A stretch of 64,000 bases of DNA. Source: a virus. How positions within the stretch are numbered: the stretch's first letter is position 1; the number at the start of each line of letters is the position of its first letter. This document shows positions 19,936 through 20,025 of this stretch, in pieces. The notes under the pieces are model-generated. The model searched no databases and was not told the origin of the DNA. It was given only the letters and a program-made list of their open reading frames with translations. The position numbers were made by a program, and so were the translations under genes. The DNA is taken from the IMG/VR virus record IMGVR_UViG_3300036806_000149, positions 1 to 64,000 of that record, one strand, 5' to 3'.

Positions 19936-20025
19936 AGCGGCGTAGCTCAAGTGGTAGAGCCCTCGGAGGCGTTTCTGATCCTTTCGGCCTGTGAGGAGAT
20001 GCAAGTTCGAGTCTTGCCGCCGCTA
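19936..20025 (+). ncRNA. tRNA-like RNA with an extended anticodon arm (no readable anticodon)
   Basis: 7-bp acceptor AGCGGCG/CGCCGCT+A; D arm GCTC-AAGTGGTA-GAGC; T arm GCAAG-TTCGAGT-CTTGC; 24 nt where the 7-nt anticodon loop should be. Confidence 0.75.

What the first reader, a model, noticed from the sequence alone, without database searches (positions are those of the whole stretch)
19936..20025. tRNA mimic with a canonical body but a 24-nt extended anticodon region
Seen: perfect 7-bp acceptor stem, U8-A9, a D arm with GG, a 5-nt variable loop and a T arm with TTCGA. The anticodon arm is CTCG/TGAG extended by a second helix AGGC/GCCT that closes a 16-nt pyrimidine-rich loop. There is no U33-anticodon geometry and no encoded CCA. 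The intact elbow and acceptor argue against simple decay. Inference: a non-decoding tRNA mimic, for example a decoy for anticodon nucleases or synthetases, a ribosome/RelA modulator, or an RNase P/Z processing signal. It is also antisense to the 3' end of the last late-operon gene.
Basis: partly seen in the sequence, partly recalled or inferred. Interest (0 to 1): 0.7.

Follow-up and report, generated by a model that had tools for sequence, protein, structure and literature searches.

The report
tRNA-shaped RNA displaying an anti-RBS loop
A soil phage carries one tRNA-shaped gene whose anticodon loop is replaced by a longer stem and a 16-base loop that exactly complements the ribosome-binding word of a set of the phage's own small genes, so it may be a natural tRNA-scaffolded antisense regulator rather than a decoder.

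Summary
ARAGORN and Rfam (45.7 bits, cut-off 29) call a tRNA at 19936-20025. It has a perfect acceptor stem and intact D and T arms, but its anticodon arm is extended by a 4-bp helix closing a 16-nt loop. No contiguous deletion rebuilds a normal anticodon arm, so it probably does not decode.

New here: loop bases UGAUCCUUUC (19976-19985) are the exact complement of GAAAGGATCA, the commonest 10-mer just upstream of ATG-started ORFs in this 84.8-kb phage. Seven exact and four one-mismatch copies sit at ribosome-binding positions. None of 1000 shuffled loops reaches the observed word count, but an energy-based control is only modest. A related phage uses the same word 13 times, never antisense, so the word is lineage-typical.

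Best reading (about 0.37): a tRNA-scaffolded antisense RNA that masks these ribosome-binding sites, working like the RNase P-processed C4 RNA of phages P1/P7. Main rival (about 0.3): a dead tRNA with an inverted sequence patch.

A 93%-identical relative of the flanking gene ends exactly at the tRNA boundary, so the element is variable or recent. Expression is untested. This scan has noted phage tRNA look-alikes with anticodon-arm inserts before, on other DNA.

The parts
19936..20025 (+). tRNA-shaped gene, 90 nt, no encoded CCA
   Evidence: ARAGORN; Rfam RF00005 45.7 bits; fold
19961..19996 (+). extended anticodon arm (element positions 26-61): 5-bp helix, G/G 1x1 mismatch, 4-bp helix AGGC/GCCU, 16-nt loop
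   Evidence: MFE equals centroid
19967..19990 (+). the 24-nt expansion (element positions 32-55) that replaces a 7-nt anticodon loop
   Evidence: no clean excision
19971..19986 (+). 16-nt loop GUUUCUGAUCCUUUCG; predicted P(unpaired) 0.63-1.0 per base
19976..19985 (+). seed UGAUCCUUUC, exact complement of the RBS word GAAAGGATCA
476..485 (+). RBS word, ATG at 488 (117 aa ORFan); 13 contiguous pairs with the loop including one G.U, reaching the A of ATG; duplex -20.1 kcal/mol
1927..1936 (+). RBS word, ATG at 1939 (58 aa)
2142..2151 (+). RBS word, ATG at 2153 (99 aa)
3188..3197 (+). RBS word, ATG at 3204 (103 aa)
5317..5326 (+). RBS word, ATG at 5330 (135 aa)
18110..18119 (+). RBS word, ATG at 18122 (114 aa), same strand and block as the tRNA-like gene
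55897..55906 (-). RBS word, ATG at 55893 (235 aa, HNH endonuclease by PHROGs)
890..899 (+). one-mismatch RBS word (GGAAGGATCA), ATG at 904
3688..3697 (+). one-mismatch RBS word (GAAAGGATCT), ATG at 3700
38912..38921 (-). one-mismatch RBS word (GAAAGGGTCA), ATG at 38910
38725..38734 (-). one-mismatch RBS word (GAAAGGATCG), ATG at 38722
49632..49641 (+). exact word inside the 689-aa HNH/helicase ORF (12-nt complement to the loop); not RBS-positioned
19947..20249 (-). last minus-strand ORF (100 aa). Residues 75-100 are antisense tRNA read-through; homologs of 76 and 75 aa stop at the tRNA boundary (about 20026)
19837..19856 (+). 8-bp hairpin 80 nt upstream of the tRNA-like gene, in the convergent gap

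Best explanation
The element is a tRNA-derived small RNA that does not decode. Its intact acceptor stem, D arm and T arm make it a substrate for the host tRNA-maturation enzymes (RNase P at the 5' end, 3' trimming and CCA addition) and make it stable. This is the same logic as the engineered 'tRNA scaffold'. Its enlarged anticodon arm holds out a 16-nt single-stranded loop. Ten to thirteen bases of that loop pair with the lineage-specific ribosome-binding word GAAAGGAUCA, which precedes the ATG of seven phage genes exactly and four more with one mismatch. These are mostly small ORFans at 0.4-5.7 kb. Pairing covers the Shine-Dalgarno bases and the spacer, and at gene 488 it reaches the first base of the start codon. 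It is predicted to be 4-9 kcal/mol stronger than pairing of the same sites with a canonical 16S tail. The RNA would therefore shut off translation of this gene set and spare the structural and replication genes, which use AAGGAGGUGA-type sites. SHOWN: the cloverleaf and the extended arm; the exact complementarity; the RBS position and over-representation of the word; the two RBS classes; the predicted accessibility of the loop. INFERRED: that the RNA is transcribed and processed; that the pairing happens in vivo; that the outcome is repression; and its timing.
For: tRNA body: Rfam 45.7 bits, 7/7 acceptor pairs, and the D- and T-loop letters visible in the alignment and fold. No canonical anticodon arm can be recovered by deletion. 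Complement of the loop: 12 sites in the window against 2.88+-1.68 expected, with 0 of 100 shuffles reaching 12. With the tRNA masked, the best 10-mer complement occurs 8 times in the genome, and 0 of 1000 composition-matched loop shuffles reach that (mean 0.51, max 5); for 9-mers the count is 10, 0 of 1000; for 11-mers 3, 1 of 1000. GAAAGGATCA is the top 10-mer in the 20 nt upstream of ATG-started ORFs of 50 aa or more (7 times). 7 of the 8 non-tRNA exact copies lie 1-6 nt before an ATG. 9 of 18 GAAAGGA heptamers are followed by TCA. Duplex energies are -14.0 to -20.1 kcal/mol for 11 motif sites, against -4.8 to -11.5 for 10 structural or replication sites that I picked by hand as a comparison set; those fit a canonical SD instead. 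Loop P(unpaired) is 0.63-1.0. The word is older than the element: the related phage G001 has 13 copies, all on one strand, none antisense, and 0 in the reversed-word control. Precedent: P1/P7 C4 antisense RNA is cut out by RNase P and its b' loop occludes ribosome-binding sites (passages of PMC5320573 section 16 and PMC12197685 section 9). The engineered tRNA scaffold shows that inserts in the anticodon arm are processed and stable in E. coli (passages of PMC3753655).
Against: There is no expression evidence. No homolog of the element was found, so there is no covariation or conservation test. The phage with a 93%-identical flanking gene has different DNA at the tRNA's 3' boundary, so the element is recent or dispensable. 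The energy-based control is weak: 8 sites at or below -14 kcal/mol against 3.73+-2.52 in shuffled loops (41 of 500 reach it), and the top-8 energy sum is reached by 15 of 500. Any pyrimidine-rich loop pairs somewhat with purine-rich RBSs, and the 8-mer count is not significant (84 of 1000). G001 uses the same word without any such RNA in the 85%-complete record, so the word does not need the RNA. The idea does not generalise: 62 other expanded-arm viral tRNA look-alikes show no RBS-complement enrichment in their 5-14-kb flanks (smallest P 0.035 of 62 tests). An exact inverted copy of an RBS word could also arise by copying rather than by selection.
Confidence: 0.37

Rival explanations
1. An inactivated tRNA gene. 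An ordinary phage tRNA suffered a ~17-nt insertion or patch in its anticodon loop, for example an inverted copy of an RBS region made by template switching or gene conversion, or the remnant of a mobile cassette that carried this RBS. It is now a functionless relic, and the complementarity to the RBS word reflects copying, not selection.
For: It is the only tRNA-like gene in the record. No homolog was found anywhere searched. The 93% relative of the flanking gene differs at the tRNA boundary, and the neighbouring ORF now reads 26 codons into the tRNA, which suggests a recent rearrangement. The energy statistic is modest. Earlier notes of this scan describe ORF-bearing cassettes splitting phage tRNAs at the anticodon on other DNA, and one HNH gene in this phage uses the same RBS word.
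Against: The acceptor, D and T arms show no decay. The insert forms a perfect 4-bp extension that stacks on the anticodon stem and leaves the complementary word entirely in the loop. Similarity to RBS regions does not extend beyond 10-12 nt on either side, so no larger copied block is visible. The element is identical in two runs from different studies, but this is weak evidence because the flanks differ at only 2 of 1228 positions.
Confidence: 0.3
2. A tRNA-shaped punctuation mark or decoy whose loop sequence is incidental. It would serve as an RNase P/Z cleavage site that defines the 3' end of the plus-strand transcripts at the convergent junction, or as bait for a tRNA-binding host factor such as an anticodon nuclease, a synthetase or a modification enzyme.
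For: The elbow and acceptor are intact. It sits at the convergence point of the plus-strand block (7.7-19.6 kb) and the long minus-strand block. RNase P is known to process tRNA-like structures in non-tRNA transcripts (passages of PMC4919922 section 5.4).
Against: This reading does not explain why the loop carries the exact complement of the phage's top RBS word (0 of 1000 shuffles). The loop has no canonical anticodon-loop geometry for a nuclease or synthetase to read. No nuclease, ligase or synthetase partner appeared among the 60 phage proteins scanned.
Confidence: 0.15
3. An intron-bearing decoding tRNA. A short intervening sequence is removed after transcription to give a working tRNA, for example Arg(UCG) as ARAGORN's intron mode proposes.
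For: ARAGORN -i returns tRNA-Arg(tcg) with a 15-nt insert at position 31/32. Short 'enigmatic' introns in phage tRNA genes are in print for Lak megaphages (abstract and passages of PMC6784885), and this scan has noted hairpin inserts in other phage tRNAs.
Against: The excision point 31/32 is not the canonical 37/38. The product has a U.U mismatch in a 5-bp stem and a 7-nt variable region. Over variable-loop lengths 4-7, only two deletions give at least 4 of 5 stem pairs with U33, and both need the 7-nt variable region. There is no bulge-helix-bulge motif in the fold, 17 nt cannot be a ribozyme, and no RNA ligase, RtcB or kinase was found among the proteins scanned.
Confidence: 0.08

Closest known systems
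C4 antisense RNA of phages P1 and P7
   Same: A phage-encoded small RNA that host RNase P cuts out of a longer transcript; loop sequences pair with target mRNA so that a ribosome-binding site is occluded (passages of PMC5320573 section 16 and PMC12197685 section 9). This is the same proposed logic: tRNA-enzyme processing plus loop-to-RBS pairing.
   Different: As those papers describe it, C4 is a ~77-nt three-stem-loop RNA, not a full cloverleaf. It uses two loops (a', b') on one target operon in an immunity circuit of a temperate phage. Here the RNA is a genuine RF00005-scoring tRNA body with one loop and about 7-11 dispersed targets, in a phage with no integrase found. No Rfam family other than tRNA matches the element at E<=5. 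The original RNase P paper (Hartmann et al. 1995) is not held, so it is cited only through PMC5320573 and the reference list of PMC4919922.
Engineered 'tRNA scaffold' RNAs (Ponchon and Dardel; PMC3753655)
   Same: The acceptor stem, T arm and D arm are kept so that cellular factors recognise, process and protect the RNA; the anticodon stem-loop becomes the insertion site and is kept as a hairpin (Introduction passages).
   Different: That is a laboratory design in E. coli with aptamers or long RNAs as cargo. This would be a natural case with a 24-nt antisense cargo.
'Enigmatic' introns in tRNA genes of Lak megaphages (Devoto et al. 2019, PMC6784885)
   Same: Phage tRNA genes that are longer than expected and were picked up only with intron-tolerant settings (abstract and passages).
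   Different: The Lak inserts were placed by eukaryote-mode tRNAscan and by alignment with intron-less copies, so excision restores a tRNA. Here no excision restores one. The Lak intron sequences are in Supplementary Table 6, which I could not open.
T4 RegB endoribonuclease (and RegA, the latter recalled only)
   Same: A phage function that switches off a class of its own early mRNAs by acting on their Shine-Dalgarno regions (passages of PMC3014915).
   Different: RegB is a protein nuclease that cuts GGAG; here the proposed effector is an RNA that masks the site.
Ordinary phage tRNA genes (Rfam RF00005)
   Same: The acceptor, D and T arms, length outside the anticodon arm, and score above the gathering cut-off.
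   Different: There is no 7-nt anticodon loop; a 9-bp interrupted arm and a 16-nt loop stand in its place.
Bacterial and phage Y-RNA-like YrlA (tRNA mimic; PMC4201824, search listing and abstract only)
   Same: A non-coding RNA with a tRNA-like module.
   Different: There is no YrlA match on the element at E<=5, and no Ro60/Rsr-type gene among the proteins scanned. In YrlA the tRNA-like part is an internal module of a longer RNA (recalled).

Membership tests
tRNA (Rfam RF00005) | Covariance-model score above the gathering cut-off | tested here: met
   45.7 bits against 29, model positions 1-71
tRNA (Rfam RF00005) | 7-bp acceptor stem, D arm with GG, T arm with TTCGA-type loop | tested here: met
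   Alignment and fold
tRNA (decoding) | 5-bp anticodon stem closing a 7-nt loop with U33 and purine 37 | tested here: not met
   A 16-nt loop on a 5+4-bp interrupted arm; no deletion restores the canonical arm with a 4-6-nt variable loop
tRNA (decoding) | Aminoacylation and use on the ribosome | not testable with these tools
   Needs an acylation assay or tRNA sequencing
Intron-bearing tRNA | Insert whose removal yields a canonical tRNA; canonical 37/38 position, or a bulge-helix-bulge or group I fold | tested here: not met
   The only solutions are at 31/32 or 32/33, with a U.U mismatch and a 7-nt variable region; no BHB in the fold; the insert is 15-17 nt
C4-type antisense RNA | Sequence and structure membership in the described family | tested here: not met
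   The scan of all 4227 Rfam families at E<=5 returns only tRNA plus two noise hits. That a C4 model is in Rfam rests on PMC5320573's statement that an Rfam motif search identified it.
C4-type antisense RNA | Loop complementary to the ribosome-binding site of phage target mRNA | tested here: met
   10-13 pairs with 7 exact and 4 one-mismatch RBS sites
C4-type antisense RNA | 5' end made by RNase P; repression of target translation | not testable with these tools
   No RNA run holds the stretch; needs experiments
YrlA / Y-RNA-like tRNA mimic | Rfam RF02553 match | tested here: not met
   No match on the element at E<=5

The most novel reading that the evidence does not exclude
The RNA is not a repressor but a trans-acting substitute for the anti-Shine-Dalgarno. 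Its tRNA body would dock in a ribosomal tRNA site while the long anticodon arm reaches the mRNA just upstream of the start codon and pairs with GAAAGGAUCA. That would selectively load the phage's motif-bearing mRNAs onto ribosomes, a phage-specified adaptor for translation initiation. The evidence does not exclude this: the pairing spans -12 to -3 relative to the ATG at most sites, the loop reads like a shortened form of the canonical 16S tail (a short motif recalled from memory), and the body keeps every feature that the fold and the model can check.
Probability: 0.05. Interest if true: 0.95.

Novelty: new variant of a known kind. Interest (0 to 1): 0.6.

Why it matters
If the pairing is real, this would be a natural counterpart of the engineered tRNA scaffold. 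It would also be a second, structurally distinct example, after P1/P7 C4, of a phage using the host's tRNA-processing machinery to make an antisense RNA that masks ribosome-binding sites. Here the RNA would control a whole class of the phage's own small genes, much as T4 does with the protein RegB. It would give one concrete, testable function to the growing number of phage tRNA look-alikes with anticodon-arm inserts, which are usually dismissed as pseudo-tRNAs or 'introns'. It would also suggest a simple screen: compare the insert with the phage's own translation-initiation words. That screen was negative for 62 other cases here, so the function is not general. If the rival is right, it is a cautionary example of how copying can mimic designed complementarity.

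Tried and rejected
**Homolog searches that found no counterpart of the element**
- blastn of 19400-20600 against 50,697 phage records: no match.
- blastn of the 90-nt element alone: 133 records, all partial (33% coverage or less) matches to ordinary tRNA arms, none covering 80%.
- Exact D-arm/T-arm pattern with a 34-60-nt gap in IMG/VR: 0 hits.
- Insert-helix pattern: 5 hits, all in coding-like sequence with no tRNA body around them.
- Single-protein locus searches with the two flanking proteins: none.
- Alignment-driven searches with PF06067 gave 10 viral loci (best 59% identity) and 80 of 162 metagenome loci (best 69%). ARAGORN found tRNAs in 4 of the 90 loci (L132, L154, L187, L191), none in the closer relatives L127 and L137-L147. 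A permissive Rfam scan of 9 of them found no tRNA. Synteny is weak: only the 20646-20945 homolog recurs, in L143 and L144.
- Alignment of the 76-aa flanking protein against IMG/VR: none.

**Source of the tRNA body.** It therefore identifies neither isotype nor donor.

**Sequencing runs.** No RNA holder is listed for this stretch. Contigs of X1 (possibly the source) and X2 carry the element unchanged, and X3 covers only short parts outside it.

**attP or integration remnant.** Considered and set aside. No integrase appeared among the 60 proteins scanned, and both tRNA halves are present. Not every ORF was scanned.

**G001's lone tRNA as a counterpart.** Rejected: it is an ordinary 73-nt tRNA-Glu(ttc) with an unrelated body. 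G001's outlying copy of the word at 29831 is an ordinary RBS.

**AAGATTC repeat as a promoter for the element.** Rejected: 41 dispersed copies, mostly inside genes.

**Promoter and terminator scan of 19500-20700.** Nothing found.

**Generalisation to other viral look-alikes.** Negative.

**Papers.** PMC10690425 and PMC11662646 (passages) hold nothing on this kind of RNA. Searches for a tRNA-shaped anti-RBS RNA in print found none besides C4.

**Supplements.** These were closed, so the Lak intron sequences (PMC6784885, Supplementary Table 6) were not seen.
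Full report
**What is there.** The window is the first 64 kb of an 84,777-base IMG/VR virus record classed as linear and 85% complete, with about 63% G+C. ARAGORN finds exactly one tRNA gene in the window, at 19936-20025 on the plus strand. Rfam's tRNA model scores it 45.7 bits against a cut-off of 29 over the whole model, with 31 nt where 13 are expected. No other Rfam family matches the element even at E<=5, and it is the only RF00005 match in the whole record.

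The minimum-energy and centroid folds agree (-37.9 kcal/mol, z -2.31, 4 of 200 shuffles as good). They show a 7-bp Watson-Crick acceptor stem, U8 A9, a 4-bp D stem with loop AAGUGGUA, a 5-bp T stem with loop UUCGAGU, a discriminator A and no encoded CCA. The anticodon arm consists of a 5-bp helix (26-30/57-61), a G/G 1x1 mismatch, a 4-bp helix AGGC/GCCU and a 16-nt loop GUUUCUGAUCCUUUCG. The fold survives inclusion of 100 nt of 5' flank.

**Does it decode?** ARAGORN's default call, Pro(cgg) at position 29, requires breaking the D stem (drawing). Its intron mode gives Arg(tcg) after removing 15 nt at position 31/32, leaving a U.U mismatch in the stem and a 7-nt variable region. I enumerated every contiguous deletion compatible with variable loops of 4 to 7 nt. 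Only that solution and a one-base-shifted variant reach 4 of 5 stem pairs with U33, and none does so with a 4-6-nt variable loop. The fold has no bulge-helix-bulge, and 15-17 nt cannot be a ribozyme. Among 60 phage proteins scanned with Pfam or PHROGs I found no RNA ligase, RtcB, kinase, CCA-adding enzyme, synthetase or integrase. The most economical reading is that this RNA does not decode.

**Context.** The phage encodes DNA polymerase III alpha, RecA, DnaB, primase, a Mu-type portal, an E-type major capsid protein, peptidoglycan-binding lysis enzymes and a 2947-aa ORF next to tail genes. Its portal is only 21% identical to portals of Gordonia phages, which is a weak hint of an actinobacterial host. 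The tRNA-like gene lies where a plus-strand block (7.7-19.6 kb: fibre-like proteins and a PF06067 protein) meets the long minus-strand block.

The last minus-strand ORF (19947-20249, 100 aa) overlaps the element by 79 nt. Its two database homologs, 93% and 63% identical, are 76 and 75 aa long and stop exactly where the window's ORF enters the antisense of the tRNA, since codon 75 covers 20027-20025. The only 100-aa member of the cluster comes from a 6161-nt Logan contig, the same length as the X1 record laid, so it is probably this phage's own copy. So the 26-residue tail is read-through, and a close relative has different DNA at the tRNA's 3' boundary. The element is recent, mobile or dispensable.

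**Search for homologs.** None was found. Alignment-driven locus searches reached only 59% (viral) and 69% (metagenome) relatives, which lack any tRNA at this place and share little synteny. Pattern and blastn searches for the element itself failed. Two soil runs from different studies carry the element unchanged, but the flanks differ at only 2 of 1228 positions, so this says nothing about constraint.

Most have perfect acceptor stems. They are a mixture of eukaryote-type Tyr(GTA) introns in giant-virus bins, long variable arms and extended anticodon arms. Oversized phage tRNA look-alikes are thus common, as earlier notes of this scan also say for other DNA, but none is related to this one.

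**The new observation.** Because the loop is pyrimidine-rich, I asked before looking whether its complement recurs in the phage. It does: 12 sites with 3 mismatches or fewer in the window against 2.88+-1.68 expected, with 0 of 100 shuffles reaching 12.

The signal comes from one word, GAAAGGATCA. It occurs 9 times in the genome. One copy is the antisense of the loop (19976-19985). Seven lie 1-6 nt before an ATG that opens an ORF of 58-235 aa (starts at 488, 1939, 2153, 3204, 5330, 18122 and 55893 on the minus strand). One lies inside the HNH/helicase ORF at 49632. Four one-mismatch copies are RBS-placed as well (starts at 904, 3700, 38910- and 38722-).

It is the most frequent 10-mer in the 20 nt upstream of ATG-started ORFs (7 times). 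Nine of the 18 GAAAGGA heptamers in the genome continue with TCA. The genes behind the word are small ORFans with no Pfam or PHROG hit, plus one HNH endonuclease. Structural and replication genes use AAGGAGGUGA-type sites instead.

**Controls.** With the tRNA locus masked, the best 10-mer complement of the real loop occurs 8 times, and none of 1000 composition-matched shuffles of the loop reaches that (mean 0.51, max 5). The same holds for 9-mers (10 copies, 0 of 1000) and nearly for 11-mers (3 copies, 1 of 1000), but not for 8-mers (84 of 1000).

An energy-based test on 100 automatically chosen initiation regions is much weaker: 8 regions at or below -14 kcal/mol against 3.73+-2.52 (41 of 500 shuffles reach it), and a top-8 energy sum reached by 15 of 500. 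That gene set missed four motif genes, and any pyrimidine-rich loop pairs to some degree with purine-rich sites.

Computed directly, the loop's duplexes with the 11 motif sites are -14.0 to -20.1 kcal/mol, against -8.9 to -11.3 for the same sites with a canonical 16S tail (a short motif recalled from memory). Ten structural or replication sites that I picked by hand give -4.8 to -11.5 with the loop and -8.0 to -21.5 with the tail. Loop bases are predicted unpaired with probability 0.63-1.0. At gene 488 the pairing runs for 13 contiguous pairs, including one G.U, up to the A of the ATG.

**Age of the word.** The nearest IMG/VR relative by PF06067 (G001, 124 kb, 59% identity) has 13 copies of the word, all on the strand that carries its PF06067 gene, none on the other strand, and none in the reversed-word control. 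Three more distant records have none. The single G001 copy outside the main block is an ordinary RBS. G001's one tRNA outside its cluster of 26 is a normal tRNA-Glu unrelated to this element. The word is thus a lineage-typical ribosome-binding word that does not depend on the tRNA-like RNA. The antisense copy in a tRNA loop is peculiar to this phage.

**Does it generalise?** For 62 other expanded-arm viral candidates I asked whether 8-mers complementary to the inserted segment recur upstream of ORF starts in their 5-14-kb flanks. The smallest P was 0.035 in 62 tests, which is what chance gives. The finding is specific to this element, with the caveat of low power.

**Mechanism.** The best-supported reading is a tRNA-scaffolded antisense RNA. 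The tRNA body recruits RNase P, 3' trimming and CCA addition and gives stability. The loop masks the Shine-Dalgarno and spacer of a defined set of phage mRNAs.

The closest known system is the C4 antisense RNA of P1 and P7. It is cut from a longer transcript by RNase P, and its b' loop occludes ribosome-binding sites (passages of PMC5320573 section 16 and PMC12197685 section 9). The engineered tRNA scaffold shows that hairpin inserts in the anticodon arm are tolerated by the processing machinery in E. coli (PMC3753655, passages). T4 RegB is a protein analogue that inactivates early mRNAs at their Shine-Dalgarno sequences (PMC3014915, passages). The element is not a member of the C4 family; it works like one at most.

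Shown: the structure, the complementarity, the placement and over-representation of the word, and the two RBS classes. Inferred: transcription, processing, pairing in vivo, repression and timing.

**Rivals.** The strongest rival is a dead tRNA that acquired an inverted patch of an RBS region. It explains the exact match by copying, the absence of homologs and the evidence of a recent rearrangement. It explains less well the undamaged body and the neat helix that leaves the word entirely in the loop. A role purely as a processing signal or decoy, and an intron-bearing decoding tRNA, are less likely for the reasons given under each rival.

**Literature.** Searches for a tRNA-shaped RNA that pairs with ribosome-binding sites, plus passages read in a catalogue of phage structured RNAs (PMC10690425) and in a 2025 review of phage small RNAs (PMC12197685), found no such case besides C4. 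The review does not contain the word 'tRNA' at all (0 occurrences).

**Verdict.** The element is a real tRNA-derived gene that very probably does not decode. Its loop carries a statistically robust exact complement of the phage's own ribosome-binding word. Whether that reflects function (about 0.37) or history (about 0.3) needs either relatives' DNA or a simple expression-and-reporter experiment.

Noticed in passing
window 454-62578 (e.g. 460-, 4732+, 18050-, 19813+); whole genome: Dispersed AT-rich repeat with core AAGATTC (RAAAAGATTC / AGAAAGATTCT): 41 copies on both strands of the 84.8-kb genome, mostly inside genes and in different frames. The related 10-mers are among the most repeated in the genome, which suggests a DNA-level signal.
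   Followed up: partly
L351:7553-7648 (virus record G001, 41553-41646): A 96-nt tRNA called Arg(ccg), 35 bits on RF00005, whose long extra region is purine-rich and Shine-Dalgarno-like (…GGAAGAGAAGGAGTGAAAG…). It lies in the 26-tRNA cluster of the related phage.
   Followed up: no
L017, L027, L047, L070, L084, L085, L090 (IMG/VR contigs): Seven viral contigs share a conserved ~93-94-nt tRNA look-alike with a 10-bp hairpin (…GCATACGTGATGATACATGT…) in the anticodon arm and a perfect or 6/7 acceptor stem: an unannotated family.
   Followed up: no
L018, L022, L028, L062, L075, L105 and others: A family of ~93-nt viral tRNAs with a normal CTTATAC anticodon loop and a long extra arm, i.e. a class-I body with a class-II-like variable arm.
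   Followed up: no
window 19947-20025 (-): The 100-aa ORF's last 26 codons are antisense tRNA; homologs stop at 75-76 aa. Gene callers will over-extend this gene.
   Followed up: yes
It is followed at once by the RBS word at 476.
   Followed up: partly
window 49632-49643 (+): A 12-nt exact complement of the tRNA-like loop lies inside the HNH + ResIII helicase ORF (49001-51070) of the low-GC island; its significance is unknown.
   Followed up: no
window 19565-19935: A 370-nt gap between the PF06067 gene and the tRNA-like gene. A protein-like plus frame ends at 19839 but has no ATG/GTG/TTG start, and an 8-bp hairpin lies at 19837-19856.
   Followed up: partly
window 51683-52150 (-): A 155-aa protein with an RVT_3 (RNase H-like) domain, next to the low-GC island.
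   Followed up: no
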